From: Escherichia coli
GTDB lineage: Bacteria; Pseudomonadota; Gammaproteobacteria; Enterobacterales; Enterobacteriaceae
DNA: 44,716 nt
Assembly: GCF_048403405.1 (NCBI RefSeq)
Contig: NZ_CP183137.1
Direction: 5' to 3' (one strand)
This document shows, piece by piece, positions 6,001-12,000 of this stretch (position 1 is the first letter of the stretch; each line of letters begins with the position of its first letter). A program made the position numbers.

Positions 6001-9000
6001 CATTCTCAATAAAAAACATGGGTGACTCCTTTTTTCTTTTCCGGGCAGGGACGGTCATGCGATAACGTCATCCATCATCACTGCCCTTACCGTCACGCCG
6101 TCTGATAACATCATGCCGTTATCATCATCACCATGATAACAAGCATCCATATAACCACGCCGTTAAATTACCGGAGAGCCGTTTCCGTCAGATCCGACTT
6201 TCCGGAATATCACAACTTTCCGGAAGTGTACCACGCTGAGAAAATCATCATATCGCTGTTTTCCGCCCCTGCGCGGCGCATCACAGGTCAGGGAGATGAC
6301 ACAACATATAGTGTCATCAGCAGCTGAATTCAGCACTACATGTTGTGCTGACGGGAGATGGCGCTGTGCGGAGGGAGAGGAAGATCCGTAACCGCCGGAA
6401 ACCGGATCTGCACGGCGGGAAACGGGCAAATGATATGATAATTAAGCAACACACATAAAATCATATCAGATATGATTTTCATCGTTAAAAATTAAACAAT
6501 ATCTGATATTATCAGAAATCAGGAGCACACAAATCATGCAGGATATGATTTTTACCTGTCAGAACATTATCAGATGGAGCGTGCAGGATGGATCAGGAAA
6601 TGACGTTTTCACTCAGCTATGAACAACTGACCCGGTTTGCGGAAAAACGCATTCGGGAATGCAATCTGGACAGCCAGGGCGCGATTTATCTCTGCGAGTC
6701 AGCCAAAGCCGGAGCCGTGCTGATCTTCTGGCATGAACTGGCCATAAATGGCTATGCCTCAATGAATGCCATAAAGGGGTCAGTTTGGATATCGAAAATT
6801 ATTGGGCACTGTTGCAAAGTTAGCGATGAGGCAGCCTTTTGTCTTATTCAAAGGCCTTACATTTCAAAAACTCTGCTTACCAGGCGCATTTCGCCCAGGG
6901 GATCACCATAATAAAATGCTGAGGCCTGGCCTTTGCGTAGTGCACGCATCACCTCAATACCTTTGATGGTGGCGTAAGCCGTCTTCATGGATTTAAATCC
7001 CAGCGTGGCGTTGATTATCCGTTTCAGTTTGCCATGATCGCATTCAATCACGTTGTTCCGGTACTTAATCTGTCGGTGTTCAACGTCAGACGGGCACCGG
7101 CCTTCGCGTTTGAGCAGAGCAAGCGCGCGACCATAGGCGGGCGCTTTATCCGTGTTGATGAATCGTGGGATCTGCCACTTCTTCACGTTGTTGAGGATTT
7201 TACCCAGAAACCGGTATGCAGCTTTGCTGTTACGACGGGAGGAGAGATAAAAATCGACAGTGCGGCCCCGGCTGTCGACGGCCCGGTACAGATACGCCCA
7301 GCGGCCATTGACCTTCACGTAGGTTTCATCCATGTGCCACGGGCAAAGATCGGAAGGGTTACGCCAGTACCAGCGCAGCCGTTTTTCCATTTCAGGCGCA
7401 TAACGCTGAACCCAGCGGTAAATCGTGGAGTGATCGACATTCACTCCGCGTTCAGCCAGCATCTCCTGCAGCTCACGGTAACTGATGCCGTATTTGCAGT
7501 ACCAGCGTACGGCCCACAGAATGATGTCACGCTGAAAATGCCGGCCTTTGAATGGGTTCATGTGCAGCTCCATCAGCAAAAGGGGATGATAAGTTTATCA
7601 CCACCGACTATTTGCAACAGTGCCGAAAAAACTAAGCTAGGCTGGGGGGCAAGCTTTCAGCTAATGAGATACATGACTGAGCAACTGGATGAAAATGGCA
7701 GGGTTATCGGATTAATGAAGATATAAATGTGACAGGTCAGGTGAATCGTAGTGGTTGTTCAATGCCCCAAGGGCAGTCAGTTAATATGATTCTTCCTCCT
7801 GTCGGTGTGGCTCTGTTGAGAAAAAATGCCGGCCTGAAATTACCCGGCAACACCGGAAGGGCTGCGTTATCCGGCCTCAAGAGCGGGCTGAACAGGTGAG
7901 GGAACAGCTGAACGGCCACGACATAATCCACAACCCCGTTACCTGGACCACAAAACGGGAGAAACGGCGACGGAAACGCTGACACAGCGTGAGCTGGTCG
8001 CGAGGCTGAAACAGCACATCCCGGAGAAGTTTTTTAAGATGGTGAGGTACTTCGGGTTCCTTGCCAACCGGGTGTGTGGAGAAAAGCTGCCGCAGGTGTA
8101 CCGTGCTCTGGGGATGGATAAGCCGGAACCAGTGGCGAAAGTGTGCTATGCACAAATGGTGAAACAGTTCCTGAGTCGTGACCCGTTCGAATGCGTGCTG
8201 TGTGGCGGCCGGATGGTGTACCGCCGGGCCATTGCGGGGCTGAATGTATCAGGGCTGAAGAAAAACGCGCGGGATATCAGTCTGCTGAGGTATATCCCTG
8301 GGTGATGCAGGCTAAGTGCGCCTGCAATCCGGTAAAAGTATAAAAAACGGTCATTAACGGTATAAAAAACGACCGCAGGGGAAGCCCGAAAGCCCTGTTG
8401 TTCCGGAAACACGACTTACTGCACGTGGCATAAGGTGCGGACAACGGCGTTACTTAGTTTTTCAATTTCCTATACGTCAAGGAAACCAGTATGAAAAAAT
8501 CAATCGGTAATCTAAAATTAATGGCTAGCTGGGTTGTTGCTCTGCCGGTATTCGTTGGAGCTGGAGCTCACAGTGTATCTGTGCTCGCCCCAATATTTCT
8601 TCGTCATAATTCACAACTGACACCATACAGCCCCTTTATGGCCACTCTGGTGTTATTCCCCCTTCATTCAATAAAGGGCAATTACAGGTTTTTTGATACC
8701 ACACGCATGGGCATAGCGAGTCAGTGTATCGATGCTGGCTTTAGTGATGTTGTTTTCCAGGCGGGAAATAACCGGAGGTGTAACCCCCATGCGTTCAGCA
8801 ACCTGCGCTTTTGTCAGGTTGTCATGCTTACGCCATTCTGCAAGCAACGCCCTGAGCTTCTCCTTGCGTTCTTCTTCCTGCCATGCAGTACGATATTCCT
8901 CGTCCTTCATCCACTCGTTATGCAGTTCTTTATGGCTTACCAGTTTCATTAAGTACCTCCGCTAACCGCTTTCTGGCGAGATTGATTTCTTTTGCTGGCG

Positions 9001-12000
9001 TTTTCTGAGACTTCTTGATGAAAACCCGGAGCATGATGATGGTATTGCCTTTGTGATATACCCAGATGCCTCTGGCTATGTCTGTCCCCATCGTGCGGAT
9101 CTCAAAAAGTCCATCACCCAAGGGCTTTGTGTCCGGTTCCCGCAGTAATCGGGCATCATACTCCAGTTTGCCGATGAGACGGTCAAACTTTACCCTGATT
9201 TTTACGGGTAATGCTGTGGCTTCTTCTCTGGCTTCCGGGTGATAAACGACGCTAAACATGCGACCTCCCATTCCAATTAATATTAACCTACAGGTTAATT
9301 ACAGCCAAGATAAAATTAATCTGTAAGCTAAGATGGCTGGTAGTTGTCGCGGCTACCAGGTTACTACCCTTTCAGCATGTTTTTTTGTTTCACTGAGGAA
9401 CAGAGATTTATGCCGCGTTAGCGGCATGGAAGGCGGTACTCCGTTATTTCCGATTTCACTGGCTGATACTTGTCGTGTACAGAGTGCCATGACAGCCTGA
9501 CGTTTGACTTCTGGTTCAAAGGGCGCAACCGGGTTGGCCTTACTGGTAAATATACGTCGTCTGTCGGGATAAAGTTCATTAACCCAGCGAGCGGGCACAT
9601 CAGTGCAGGGATAACCCAGGGCTCTGCTGGTAAACGCCAGGCAGCAGCCGTGGTTAAGATAATGTTCAACGGCAACCTGTTTTTGCTCATCGGAGTAACG
9701 GTGCTTATGACGAATGGATTCTTTTACGCCACCACCTGCTTCCCATGAGCGGATCCAACGACGCAGATTCCTTTTCGAAGGGTAGCCCAGTTCGCGTACG
9801 ACGGGAGCCAGCTTCTTACCATATTTGAAATAAAGCTCAATGGCGCGGATTTTTTCTTCTTCAGTAAACTTGTTTTATCTCCTGAGAGTCCAGGAAATCG
9901 TCCGCATCCCCACCCCGGCCAATAATCTTGGCGTTGACAGCTGTTCGCAGGTTCCGACAGCAGTGGCGAACATGCGGCGGTGTTGTACTCGCTGATCGGC
10001 ACATGCCGTCTGAACAATGTGGGGCCAGAAAAATGGCTGCATTACGTTATTGAGCATATCCAGGACTGGCCGGCAAACCGGGTACGCGATCTGTTGCCCA
10101 GGAAAGTTGATCTGAGCTCTCAGTAAATATCAATACGGTTCTGGCGAGTCGCTTACTTGCATAACGGCTCTGACGTCAGTGCACTACTCCTATTCAAAAT
10201 CGTTTCTTGAAATCAGAAAGGGCGTATTTCAGATCAGAACCACAAAGCGCTCTCTGGGATTCACTTAATACATCCTTAACAGGAATAATCCCTTTTTTTC
10301 TTAAGGTATAAAACTCCATACCATCATCATTTTTTAATCTCCAGTCTCTCGATACATCAACCTCACCAAGGTATCCGGTAACGACCAGACTATGATACCC
10401 ATGTACTTTCATAATTTCTTTCAGCCGTTGTGCGAAGGCTGGGGTTCTCGAATGTATCCCCGAGGCGCAGGACAACACTCTGATATCTATGAAGTTCTTT
10501 GGTAAACGTTTGTTCATTAATAGAGTGGCTAATGCTACGGGATTCAACGTTGGCCCAGTTGCTGAACCTGACCCAATAACTGATGTGTTGCCATGAGCAA
10601 CGATGTATAACGTATCGCTCGGTTGAAGAAAGGATAAAGGTGTTTTGTGTGAAGCTTTCACACCATAACATTCTTTATTCTTCATTTTCTGATACTTAAC
10701 TTCGGCATCAAGAAAAGCGTCATTTTCTTCCATTTGAAATGAGAAAAAGTAAATAATAATATTACCTCGACATCAGAAAAAATTAAAATACTCCACATGC
10801 GGAAAGCTCTGAGCAGGAAACATCACCAAGGACGAAACCTCCTCTCTCTGCAAAGGATAGTTATCCATCCGGGGCAACCTATACCTTTACCATAACTTCC
10901 GGCAGAGCCACCTTGCTACAATGAACCGCCCCGGGTTTCCTGGAGAGTGTTTTATTTGTGAACAACAGCCCAGCTAACCACAAAGTTTAGATTGAAGGTT
11001 GATTTCTTCATACTCGTTTCCTTGATTTTCTGGGCAATTAAGGTCGGTTGGTTTTTGTTGTCAGAGGGATTCTCACCCAACTGTCGGACGGTTCTTTCGG
11101 TCTTCTGAATCTGTTGATACGTCAGGCTGCCTACTCGGTCGTTTTCTTCCCTGTTTGCTGGAAAATATTGAATTCAGTGCCGCTCCGTCAGGTGAAACCA
11201 CGCTGGAAGCTATACGCTATCTTGCGGCGATCCAGTCAACACGGAGACAGAATATTGATGATGCGCCAATGGCGATAATTACCGGCCCCTGGAAGCGACT
11301 CTGCTATGGCAAAGACGGTCATTTATCCCGTTATCAGCAAACATTACACGCAGCGCATTGAGCGGCATAACCTGAATCTGAGGCAACAACTGGCAGGGGC
11401 GGGCAGGAAGTCACTGTCGTTCTCAAAATCGGTGGAACAGCATGACAAAGTCATCGGGCATTATCTGAACATAGAACACTATCAGTAAGTTGGAGTCATT
11501 ACCATCGAAGTGAAGAAAGTTGTTTTAAGGTCAGCCTTTCTGTGCAAATATTAACGCTAATGATAACCATTATTCTTATCGTTTATGGGGGATCACACCG
11601 GGTCAGTGCAAGCCAGACGACGAATAACGTCGCTTTTGCGAGGTGTGATATGTGCTAATAACTAAAAATAAGCCTGCATTTATCATGGAAAAAGACGCAT
11701 CTCTGCCTTTCGGCAGTTTCAACTCACTGGCATTGTTTACGGGTCTGTGTCTGGGTGCATCACCGGCAACGGGCATCGCAGCGGAAAAATCAGTCAAAAA
11801 TAGTGAAGAGACACTGGTGGTGGAAGCCAGCCCACCTTCACTTTATTCTCCCGGCGCCTCTGCCGATCCGAAATTCAATAAACCGCTGGTCGATACTACC
11901 CGCACCATCACCGTGCTCTCCGAACCGGTGATTAAAGATCAGGGCGTCACCAACCTGACTGACGCCCTCAAAAACGTCCCCGGCGTCGGGGCGTTTTATG

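What the first reader, a model, noticed from the sequence alone, without database searches (positions are those of the whole stretch)
8668..9300. higBA-like toxin-antitoxin pair with operator palindrome, stranded between IS91 and transposase remnants
This is a RelE-fold toxin followed by an overlapping HTH antitoxin, with a perfect TTAACCT/AGGTTAA palindrome upstream. It probably contributes to plasmid maintenance or local stabilisation of the IS-rich segment.
Basis: partly seen in the sequence, partly recalled or inferred. Interest (0 to 1): 0.25.

Follow-up and report, generated by a model that had tools for sequence, protein, structure and literature searches.

The report
Ordinary plasmid toxin-antitoxin gene pair
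This is an intact but ordinary two-gene "addiction" module: an mRNA-cutting toxin of the Gp49/HigB type, its DNA-binding antidote, and their own promoter. It is already annotated on more than a thousand enterobacterial plasmids and sits here between fragments of mobile elements.

Summary
The minus strand carries a 109-aa toxin gene (8930-9259) followed by a 93-aa helix-turn-helix antitoxin gene (8668-8949). They overlap by 20 nt.

The toxin belongs to Pfam Gp49 (PF05973), the phage N15 gp49 / Tad / M. tuberculosis HigB1 / S. pneumoniae HigB branch of the RelE superfamily. It is not in the family of the classical Rts1 HigB. Its AlphaFold model (pLDDT 91) matches S. pneumoniae HigB (TM 0.80) and M. 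tuberculosis HigB1 (TM 0.75). Eight of nine proposed catalytic-pocket residues of HigB1 are kept.

Both genes are under strong purifying selection (dN/dS 0.02-0.12). A K. pneumoniae pair that is 65%/53% identical was shown to be toxic and neutralised in E. coli.

Comparison with relatives adds a second operator-like site (9316-9331), 33 bp from the first. It also shows that the mobile unit is about 0.7 kb: operators, promoter and two genes.

RefSeq already annotates these exact proteins as a type II toxin-antitoxin pair. The module is ordinary and already known, and a plasmid-maintenance role is inferred, not shown.

The parts
8930..9259 (-). Toxin gene, 109 aa, Gp49-family RelE-superfamily toxin (identical to RefSeq WP_000493287.1)
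   Evidence: Pfam PF05973 79.8 bits, E=1.6e-22. A family profile hits S. pneumoniae HigB 6AF3 (E=6e-16) and M. tuberculosis HigB1 7NBU/7AWK (E=1e-10). AlphaFold2 pLDDT 91.4. Foldseek TM 0.80 and 0.75 to those structures. dN/dS 0.035-0.116. RefSeq annotation.
8668..8949 (-). Antitoxin gene, 93 aa: N-terminal helical extension (about residues 1-30) plus an Xre/HTH_3 DNA-binding domain (identical to WP_000780221.1)
   Evidence: Pfam HTH_3 E=1.8e-13. phmmer hit to S. pneumoniae HigA 6AF3_B, from the same PDB entry as the toxin hit. The profile hits M. tuberculosis HigA3, S. pneumoniae HigA and M. tuberculosis HigA2. AlphaFold2 pLDDT 87.7 with five helices. dN/dS 0.04-0.11.
8930..8949 (-). 20-nt overlap of the toxin 3' end and the antitoxin 5' end; the antitoxin Shine-Dalgarno GGAGG lies at 8956-8960 inside the toxin gene
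   Evidence: Read directly from the sequence. The same arrangement is annotated in all relatives. The layout suggests translational coupling, which is inferred.
9282..9299 (.). Proximal operator-like palindrome ATTAACCT-nn-AGGTTAAT (core TTAACC-N4-GGTTAA at 9283-9298); it fills the -35/-10 spacer and overlaps the -10 box
   Evidence: Perfect 8-nt arms. 13 of 16 core positions are invariant across six plasmid contexts. The validated Klebsiella relative has the same geometry.
9316..9331 (.). Distal operator-like site TTAGCT-TACA-GATTAA (minus strand), 33 bp start-to-start from the proximal site, just upstream of the putative -35 box
   Evidence: One-mismatch match to TTARCY-N4-RGYTAA. 81% complementary to the proximal site over 21 nt. 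In relatives it appears as a 20-nt direct repeat, 90-95% identical, at the same 33-bp spacing. 13 of 16 positions invariant. Homology between plasmid contexts begins exactly here.
9280..9308 (-). Putative sigma-70 promoter: -35 TTGGCT (9303-9308), 17-nt spacer, -10 TAATAT (9280-9285)
   Evidence: Identified by eye: 4/6 + 4/6 matches, below the 9/12 threshold of the scan, which reported nothing on this strand. TTG of the -35 box and TAAT of the -10 box are invariant in the six aligned relatives. This is an inference.
9264..9269 (-). Shine-Dalgarno GGGAGG for the toxin gene, 4 nt upstream of the ATG at 9259
   Evidence: Read directly from the sequence. GAGG is invariant in relatives.

Best explanation
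This is a self-contained type II toxin-antitoxin module of the Gp49/Tad-Ata (HigBA-like) kind, about 0.67 kb (8668-9334, minus strand).

Proposed mechanism, all steps inferred from relatives. One promoter drives a bicistronic toxin-then-antitoxin transcript. The toxin is a RelE-fold endoribonuclease that enters the ribosomal A site and cuts the mRNA being translated, which arrests growth. The antitoxin binds and neutralises it through its N-terminal helices. As a dimer, the antitoxin uses its Xre-type helix-turn-helix domain to bind two 16-bp inverted repeats (TTARCY-N4-RGYTAA) that bracket the -35 box and overlap the -10 box, so the operon represses itself. The toxin probably acts as co-repressor. 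If the plasmid is lost, the antitoxin is expected to decay faster than the toxin, and plasmid-free segregants are inhibited. That would help keep this IncI1-type plasmid and any segment carrying the cassette.

Shown here: gene structure, family membership, fold, retained catalytic residues, purifying selection, conserved paired operator-like sites, cassette boundaries, and a plasmid-biased distribution.

Inferred from relatives: toxicity, neutralisation, ribosome-dependent cleavage, autoregulation, differential stability, and the maintenance effect.
For: Family and fold:
- Pfam Gp49 and HTH_3.
- Toxin and antitoxin each hit the two chains of one solved complex, S. pneumoniae HigBA 6AF3. The profile search adds M. 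tuberculosis HigB1, including its ribosome-bound structure 7NBU.
- The AlphaFold2 model is beta1-alpha1-alpha2-four beta strands-long alpha3. Its best structural matches are HigB-Sp and HigB1-Mtb, followed by RelE, YoeB, BrnT and ParE.

Catalytic residues:
- The HigB1-Mtb pocket residues K58, E66, R68, R77, F93, K95, Q98 and K99 (PMC9098466) align with K45, E53, R55, R63, F80, K82, Q85 and K86 here.
- E53 and R55 are invariant, and R63, K82 and K83 are at least 90% conserved, in 55 homologues.

Selection and experiment in relatives:
- dN/dS is 0.02-0.12 for both genes while dS reaches 0.4-0.5.
- K. pneumoniae toxin 14H (Gp49) was toxic in E. coli, and its downstream HTH antitoxin 27P fully inhibited it (PMC7192599 main text and supplement). 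That pair is 65% and 53% identical to this one.
- Phage N15 gp49/gp48, the family's namesake, is 43%/35% identical. It is the subject of a paper whose title calls it a toxin-antitoxin stabilising system (cited in PMC2701414).
- A. baumannii Gp49-type HigBA2 is autorepressed by antitoxin and by complex, and it stabilised an unstable plasmid (PMC5906591).
- S. pneumoniae HigBA binds promoter palindromes (PMC7984235).

Operators and cassette:
- Two conserved sites lie 33 bp apart. The validated Klebsiella locus has two palindromes of the same 6+4+6 geometry ending in the same TAATAT.
- Homology among six different plasmid backbones starts at the distal site and ends at the antitoxin stop codon.
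- 290 of 305 copies in complete E. coli genomes are on plasmids.
Against: - Nothing has been tested for this exact pair. No paper in the held library mentions its protein accessions.
- The promoter is a by-eye call that the consensus scan did not report.
- One proposed pocket residue of HigB1-Mtb (N73) has no counterpart here, nor does K113 of its tRNA-contacting helix.
- Two other Gp49-family toxins, M. tuberculosis HigB2 and HigB3, were not toxic, so family membership alone does not guarantee activity.
- Deleting the A. baumannii homologue from its native plasmid did not destabilise it. A measurable maintenance effect is therefore not assured, particularly on a plasmid that also carries partition genes (ParA/ParM).
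- No intrinsic terminator was found after the antitoxin gene in this copy.
Confidence: 0.85

Rival explanations
1. The module is an active toxin-antitoxin pair, but its selected role is defence against phages or competing plasmids (abortive infection triggered when infection depletes the antitoxin), not post-segregational killing.
For: Reviews of the RelE/ParE superfamily list phage and plasmid defence among toxin-antitoxin roles (PMC11980606 abstract). Relatives are common in temperate phages and phage-plasmids such as N15, phiKO2 and Stx phages, and both proteins match PHROG families strongly. There are weak PADLOC matches: NsnC at E=3e-6 over about 50 residues, and HTH_VI at E=1e-10.
Against: The PADLOC matches are partial and generic, and neither corresponds to a defined Gp49-HTH defence system. 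There are no adjacent defence genes; the neighbours are IS fragments. 95% of E. coli copies are plasmid-borne. In other plasmids the module sits beside replication, partition or leading-region genes, which fits maintenance. The two roles are not mutually exclusive.
Confidence: 0.1
2. The toxin is catalytically weak or non-toxic, as reported for M. tuberculosis HigB2 and HigB3. The pair would then persist mainly as an autoregulated DNA-binding regulator with a passenger protein.
For: Two of three M. tuberculosis Gp49-family toxins showed no toxicity (PMC9098466). The counterparts of N73 and K113 of HigB1-Mtb are absent here.
Against: K58, F93 and K99 are among the residues missing in the non-toxic HigB2/HigB3, and their counterparts K45, F80 and K86 are present here. 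The toxin gene is as strongly constrained as the antitoxin gene (dN/dS 0.02-0.12). The 65%-identical Klebsiella toxin is toxic.
Confidence: 0.04
3. The ORFs and the palindrome are chance features or a decayed remnant within an IS-scrambled region.
For: The region is full of truncated transposase genes. Perfect 8-nt inverted repeats are not rare in the window (21 found).
Against: Both ORFs are full-length and identical to RefSeq proteins that are not flagged as pseudogenes. Family E-values are 1e-13 to 1e-22. Purifying selection is strong. The operator sites are conserved in six unrelated flanking contexts.
Confidence: 0.01

Closest known systems
K. pneumoniae plasmid pair 14H (Gp49 toxin) / 27P (HTH antitoxin), Horesh et al. 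2020, NAR (PMC7192599)
   Same: Same two-gene toxin-first architecture with an overlap. Toxin 65% and antitoxin 53% identical. Two upstream 6+4+6 palindromes end in a TAATAT -10 box. It lies on IncF plasmids. It was tested: toxic in E. coli and fully inhibited by the downstream antitoxin.
   Different: The operator half-site is TTAGCT rather than TTA(A/G)CC. The two sites are tandem at 17-bp spacing instead of 33 bp. The proteins are 106 and 92 aa.
Phage N15 gp49-gp48 and the Tad-Ata module of Paracoccus aminophilus pAMI2 (Dziewit et al. 2007, cited in PMC2701414)
   Same: N15 gp49 gives Pfam PF05973 its name. Identity here is 43% for the toxin and 35% for the antitoxin, over full length. The gene order is the same and the antitoxin is Xre-type. 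The title of the cited paper describes these as stabilising toxin-antitoxin systems.
   Different: N15 carries it on a linear plasmid-prophage. Its upstream region has a different inverted repeat. The Dziewit paper itself was not available, so its details rest on the citation.
Streptococcus pneumoniae HigBA (PDB 6AF3/6AF4; PMC7984235)
   Same: Best sequence and structure match among solved structures for both proteins. It shares the long C-terminal helix on the toxin. It is a 2:2 heterotetramer that binds palindromes in its own promoter. Active-site residues R68, R73, F90 and K92 correspond, via their HigB1-Mtb equivalents, to R55, R63, F80 and K82 here.
   Different: Only 21-24% identity in the structural alignment. 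The pneumococcal toxin is 141 aa with an extra N-terminal segment, and the module is chromosomal. Four palindromes with a different consensus were reported.
Mycobacterium tuberculosis HigB1 (TAC toxin, Rv1955; PDB 7AWK, 7NBU; PMC9098466)
   Same: Gp49-family fold (TM 0.75, rmsd 1.9 A). Ribosome A-site mRNA endonuclease. Eight of nine proposed pocket residues are conserved here.
   Different: TAC is tripartite and needs a SecB-like chaperone for its antitoxin; no third gene exists here. The counterparts of N73 and K113 are absent.
Acinetobacter baumannii plasmid HigBA2 (PMC5906591)
   Same: Gp49-domain toxin first, Xre antitoxin second, plasmid-borne. It is autorepressed by antitoxin, and more strongly by the complex. 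It stabilises an unstable plasmid.
   Different: It is a distant branch of the family, and direct similarity to this pair was not measured. Its complex is unusually large, about 100 kDa.
Classical HigBA of plasmid Rts1 (Proteus vulgaris) and V. cholerae HigBA-1/-2
   Same: Toxin-first order, RelE-superfamily ribosome-dependent mRNase, HTH antitoxin, operators overlapping the promoter, plasmid stabilisation (PMC11980606).
   Different: The Pfam families differ: PF05015 for Rts1 HigB and V. cholerae HigB-1, PF06296 for V. cholerae HigB-2. Neither model matched this toxin. V. cholerae HigB2 structures match only weakly (TM 0.54-0.58).

Membership tests
Gp49 / Tad-type toxins (Pfam PF05973, RelE/ParE superfamily) | Match to the family profile above the curated threshold | tested here: met
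   79.8 bits against a gathering score of 23.9, E=1.6e-22, covering residues 19-103. 43% identical to N15 gp49 itself.
Gp49 / Tad-type toxins (Pfam PF05973, RelE/ParE superfamily) | RelE (BECR) fold, an antiparallel beta-sheet flanked by helices, with the long C-terminal helix alpha3 typical of Gp49-like toxins | tested here: met
   AlphaFold2 model with pLDDT 91.4 has helix 89-106. Foldseek gives 6AF4 TM 0.80 and 7AWK TM 0.75, followed by RelE, YoeB, BrnT and ParE. The alpha3 feature is described in PMC9098466. This is a predicted structure, not a solved one.
Gp49 / Tad-type toxins (Pfam PF05973, RelE/ParE superfamily) | Conserved basic/acidic catalytic pocket (HigB1-Mtb K58, E66, R68, N73, R77, F93, K95, Q98, K99) | tested here: met
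   K45, E53, R55, R63, F80, K82, Q85 and K86 align with eight of the nine; N73 has no counterpart. The mapping comes from profile alignment, not from a structure with substrate.
Gp49 / Tad-type toxins (Pfam PF05973, RelE/ParE superfamily) | Toxin gene first, followed by an Xre-type HTH antitoxin gene | tested here: met
   Toxin 8930-9259 is upstream of antitoxin 8668-8949 on the minus strand. Toxin-first order is listed for PF_gp49 in PMC11980606 Table 1.
Gp49 / Tad-type toxins (Pfam PF05973, RelE/ParE superfamily) | Ribosome-dependent cleavage of mRNA | not testable with these tools
   Needs in vitro translation or primer-extension assays. It has been shown for HigB1-Mtb.
Type II toxin-antitoxin system (general) | Toxin inhibits growth and the cognate protein antitoxin neutralises it | not testable with these tools
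   Shown only for a 65%/53% identical Klebsiella pair.
Type II toxin-antitoxin system (general) | Small, adjacent, co-directional genes forming one operon, both maintained by selection | tested here: met
   20-nt overlap with an internal Shine-Dalgarno sequence. dN/dS is 0.02-0.12 for both genes. The cassette keeps the same boundaries in six backbones.
Type II toxin-antitoxin system (general) | Antitoxin or complex binds operator repeats in its own promoter (autoregulation) | tested here: inconclusive
   Two conserved inverted repeats are correctly placed around a weak sigma-70-like promoter. Binding and repression were not tested, and the promoter was not picked up by the scan.
Type II toxin-antitoxin system (general) | Antitoxin less stable than toxin (protease-labile) | not testable with these tools
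   No computation available here addresses protein half-life.
HigA/Ata-type Xre antitoxins of Gp49 toxins | Xre/HTH_3 domain preceded by an N-terminal toxin-binding extension | tested here: met
   HTH_3 covers residues 36-86. Profile matches to M. tuberculosis HigA3 (positions 6-84) and S. pneumoniae HigA (4-78) include the extension. The model has helices 6-14 and 17-42 before the HTH. That the extension binds the toxin is inferred from 6AF4.
Classical HigB family (Rts1 HigB / V. cholerae HigB-1, Pfam PF05015) and V. cholerae HigB-2 family (PF06296) | Match to the PF05015 or PF06296 profile | tested here: not met
   Gp49 was the only Pfam family reported at E<=0.01. The family assignments of the classical HigBs come from PMC11980606. 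The module works like these systems but does not belong to their families.

The most novel reading that the evidence does not exclude
The paired operators, phased 33 bp (about three helical turns) apart, could give this plasmid lineage an unusual regulatory logic. One possibility is DNA looping or cooperative binding of two antitoxin dimers bridged by toxin. The G-to-A change that makes the proximal site a perfect palindrome in the window's variant, together with the G-to-A change that weakens the distal site, could then retune repression. Alternatively, the module's main selected role could be phage or plasmid exclusion rather than addiction.
Probability: 0.1. Interest if true: 0.3.

Novelty: already known. 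Interest (0 to 1): 0.1.

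Why it matters
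It matters little beyond correct annotation. The module is one of several maintenance functions on a mosaic IncI1-type plasmid that also carries a serine-protease autotransporter and iron-uptake genes. The same cassette sits next to CS6 and heat-stable enterotoxin genes on enterotoxigenic E. coli plasmids, and on many Klebsiella resistance plasmids. It may therefore help such plasmids persist without selection.

Three results are useful:
- The precise subfamily assignment: Gp49/Tad, not classical HigB.
- The corrected start codon.
- The definition of the two-site operator and the roughly 0.67-kb mobile unit.

These give ready-made targets for anyone testing plasmid-curing or toxin-activation strategies.

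Tried and rejected
1. The sigma-70 consensus scan found no promoter on the minus strand upstream of the toxin. The promoter in the report is a by-eye 8/12 match supported only by conservation.
2. NCBIfam has no model that matches the toxin. The antitoxin gave only sub-threshold HipB/Y4mF-type hits.
3. I first recalled V. cholerae HigB-2 as a Gp49 member. The literature places it in PF06296, and it matches the model only weakly, so that link was dropped.
4. A third gene follows the antitoxin in the IncK relative (L009 2413-2676). I checked it as a possible TAC-like third component. It gives only a weak PaaA2 antitoxin hit and probably belongs to a separate ParE-type module split by an IS. It is absent from the window.
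5. The two other one-mismatch matches to the operator pattern (18912 and 40383) have no related genes nearby and are treated as chance.
6. Rfam found no RNA family in or near the locus.
7. The antitoxin fold search returned only generic Xre-type HTH hits, with E-values of 0.05 or more.
8. The 153-aa plus-strand ORF at 8491-8952, antisense to the antitoxin, has no family match. The substitution pattern fits the antitoxin frame, so it is rejected as a gene.
9. No terminator was found downstream of the antitoxin in this copy. The Klebsiella and Raoultella copies show GC-rich hairpins followed by T-runs there, judged by eye.
10. A search for papers naming the exact protein accessions found none for this pair.
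11. The Dziewit 2007 paper could not be opened.

Full report
**What is there.** The region was read on both strands. The minus strand carries two small genes in tandem.

- The first is listed mechanically as 8930-9271 but almost certainly starts at the ATG at 9259. GGGAGG lies 4 nt upstream. Every homologue begins MF(S/T/N)V. The upstream ATG is lost in the Raoultella relative. RefSeq annotates the same 330-nt gene.
- The second gene, 8668-8949, starts 20 nt before the first one ends and has its own GGAGG six nt upstream.
It extends to a perfect 8+2+8 inverted repeat, ATTAACCT-AC-AGGTTAAT, at 9282-9299.

**Is it more than chance?** The repeat alone is modest evidence.

- The window contains 21 perfect inverted repeats with arms of at least 8 nt and spacers of 0-6 nt, against about 4 in shuffles.
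- The chance of one in a shuffled copy of the 100-nt upstream region is 0.9%.

Comparison with relatives gives it weight. Six copies of the module on different backbones were aligned: this window, Klebsiella IncC and IncF, Raoultella IncF, E. albertii IncF/I and Escherichia IncK.

- Homology begins about 75 nt upstream of the start codon and ends at the antitoxin stop codon.
They lie 33 bp apart start-to-start.
- Each site has 13 of 16 positions invariant. The stretch between them has 7 of 17, and the stretch down to the ribosome-binding site has 9 of 23.
- In the five aligned relatives the proximal site is slightly imperfect (TTAGCC or TTAGCA where the window has TTAACC). The window's copy carries a G-to-A change that perfects it, and another G-to-A change that weakens the distal site.
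- A weak sigma-70-like promoter can be read by eye: TTGGCT at 9303-9308, a 17-nt spacer, TAATAT at 9280-9285. The proximal site fills the spacer and overlaps the -10 box, and the distal site abuts the -35 box. The consensus scan did not report this promoter, so it remains an inference.

**What the proteins are.** The toxin matches Pfam Gp49 (PF05973) at E=1.6e-22 and no other toxin family. The antitoxin matches HTH_3 at E=1.8e-13.

- By plain sequence search, the two proteins hit the two chains of a single solved complex, S. pneumoniae HigB/HigA (6AF3).
- A profile of 55 homologues raises that match to E=6e-16 and adds M. tuberculosis HigB1, including its ribosome-bound structure (E=1e-10). 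Faint RelE matches follow.
- An AlphaFold2 model of the toxin (pLDDT 91.4) has the RelE-type sheet and the long C-terminal helix characteristic of Gp49-like toxins.
- Foldseek ranks S. pneumoniae HigB (TM 0.80) and M. tuberculosis HigB1 (TM 0.75, rmsd 1.9 A) first. RelE, V. cholerae HigB2, YoeB, BrnT and ParE follow.
- The residues proposed to form the HigB1 catalytic pocket are K58, E66, R68, N73, R77, F93, K95, Q98 and K99. They align with K45, E53, R55, none, R63, F80, K82, Q85 and K86 here.
- E53 and R55 are invariant across the 55 homologues, and R63, K82 and K83 are nearly so.
- The antitoxin profile matches the antitoxins of Gp49-type toxins (M. tuberculosis HigA3 and HigA2, S. pneumoniae HigA) over a span that includes the N-terminal extension. 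It also matches HipB-type HTH domains.
- The antitoxin model (pLDDT 87.7) has two N-terminal helices ahead of a canonical Xre fold, and a short C-terminal tail.

**Are the genes alive?** Against five relatives, synonymous divergence reaches 0.4-0.5 while dN/dS stays at 0.02-0.12 for both genes. Both frames are therefore under strong purifying selection. In the identical plasmid pCREC774-3, both genes are annotated as intact while all their neighbours are flagged as partial.

**Experimental anchors in relatives.**

- Horesh et al. tested K. pneumoniae toxin group 14H (Gp49) in E. coli. It was toxic, and its downstream DNA-binding antitoxin 27P inhibited it completely. The synthesised sequences translate to proteins 65% and 53% identical to the pair here.
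- The natural 14H locus has two tandem TTAGCT-N4-AGCTAA palindromes that run into a TAATAT box. That is the same operator geometry with a different half-site.
- Phage N15 gp49/gp48, the family's namesake, is 43%/35% identical. The title of a paper cited in PMC2701414 names it a stabilising toxin-antitoxin system.
- The Gp49-type HigBA2 of A. baumannii is autorepressed and stabilises an unstable plasmid, although deleting it from its native plasmid had little effect.
- S. pneumoniae HigBA binds palindromes in its own promoter.
- M. tuberculosis HigB1 cleaves mRNA in the ribosomal A site.

**Most likely mechanism.** This is an autoregulated type II toxin-antitoxin module.

- The toxin is a ribosome-dependent mRNA endonuclease.
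- The antitoxin neutralises it through its N-terminal helices and represses the operon by binding the two operators as a dimer. The toxin probably acts as co-repressor.
- Loss of the plasmid would free the toxin as the antitoxin decays.

Everything after gene structure, family, fold, selection and operator conservation is inferred from relatives. Confidence is about 0.85.

**Alternatives.**

- A defence role is supported only by phage-borne relatives and weak PADLOC hits.
- A non-toxic variant like M. tuberculosis HigB2/3 is argued against by the retained counterparts of K58, F93 and K99, by selection on the toxin gene, and by the toxic 65% homologue.
- Chance or decay is excluded.

**Context.** The segment 7500-12000 is 100% identical to E. 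coli 774 plasmid pCREC774-3.

- To the left lie IS26 (6857-7561), an ATPase fragment, and the C-terminal fragment of an IS91-family (Y2_Tnp) transposase at 7937-8305.
- To the right lie an IS3-family N-terminal fragment (9452-9850) and an IS66 C-terminal fragment (9941-10126).

The block from about 8477 to 10700-10960 (the module, the right-hand fragments and a 179-aa unknown ORF) is shared with plasmids of enterotoxigenic and Shiga-toxin-producing E. coli.

In other plasmids the cassette sits beside repA, beside psiAB, beside partition genes, or next to the CS6 and STa virulence genes.

It occurs in at least 1,197 PLSDB plasmids at 80% or more coverage. It occurs in 268 of 5,426 complete E. 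coli genomes, with 290 of 305 copies on plasmids.

**Comparison with what is known, and verdict.** The module works like HigBA systems and belongs to the Gp49/Tad-Ata family. It does not belong to the classical Rts1 HigB family (PF05015) or the V. cholerae HigB-2 family (PF06296).

RefSeq already names the exact proteins as a RelE/ParE-family type II toxin and an HTH regulator. ETEC plasmid surveys list 'relE' among stability genes without studying it. This exact pair has not been characterised experimentally in the literature searched, but nothing about it is unexpected.

The finding is real, correctly interpreted and ordinary. This work adds the precise subfamily, the corrected start codon, the second operator, the cassette boundaries, and the link to a validated homologue.

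Noticed in passing
window 8491-8952 (+): A 153-aa ORF runs antisense across the whole antitoxin gene, and an equivalent antisense ORF exists in the E. albertii relative (L008 602-919). It has no Pfam match. Substitutions fit the antitoxin frame, so it is probably not a gene.
   Followed up: partly
window 10194-10733 (-): A 179-aa ORF (annotated hypothetical, WP_248784169.1) has no Pfam or NCBIfam match. It travels with the toxin-antitoxin block and the IS3/IS66 fragments in ETEC and STEC plasmids.
   Followed up: partly
window 11652-14696 (+): A catecholate siderophore receptor gene fiu (equivalog match, 1369 bits) and ybiX, followed by an ompW fragment. This is a piece of normally chromosomal E. 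coli DNA carried on the plasmid between IS remnants.
   Followed up: partly
window 16043-20152 (-): A 1369-aa serine-protease autotransporter (Peptidase_S6, beta-solenoid and autotransporter barrel). It is a SPATE-type virulence factor; which named one was not resolved.
   Followed up: partly
window 42274-42424 (-), with ORF 41389-42261 (-): Rfam PK-repZ pseudoknot (161 bits) directly upstream of a 290-aa ORF. This marks an IncI1-type replicon and fits the IncI backbone genes (parM, DUF1281, integrase) matched at 1-7600.
   Followed up: no
window 6857-7561 (-): An intact IS26 transposase gene forms the left boundary of the scrambled segment. Matches to IncI plasmids stop at about 7624.
   Followed up: no
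window 18912-18927 and 40383-40398: Two further one-mismatch matches to the operator pattern TTARCY-N4-RGYTAA; the second, TTAACCTGTAAGATAA, matches the proximal operator at 13 of 16 positions. No related genes lie nearby, so they are treated as chance.
   Followed up: partly
L011 1976-2389 (K. pneumoniae NZ_CP030343.1): In the experimentally validated Klebsiella 14H-27P locus, a second HTH-domain gene (WP_004152722.1) starts right at the antitoxin stop codon. It is absent from the related locus L010 annotation and from the window.
   Followed up: no
L009 2413-2676 and 4049-4303 (Escherichia sp. IncK2/Z plasmid): Directly after the antitoxin lies an 87-aa gene with a weak PaaA2-antitoxin match, then an IS4-like insertion, then a RelE/ParE toxin gene. 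This looks like a second, ParE-type module split by the IS.
   Followed up: partly
L005 about 3180-3215 and L007 about 3165-3200: The Klebsiella IncC and Raoultella copies have, by eye, a GC-rich hairpin followed by a T-run just after the antitoxin stop codon. The window's copy lacks it, because homology ends at the stop codon.
   Followed up: partly
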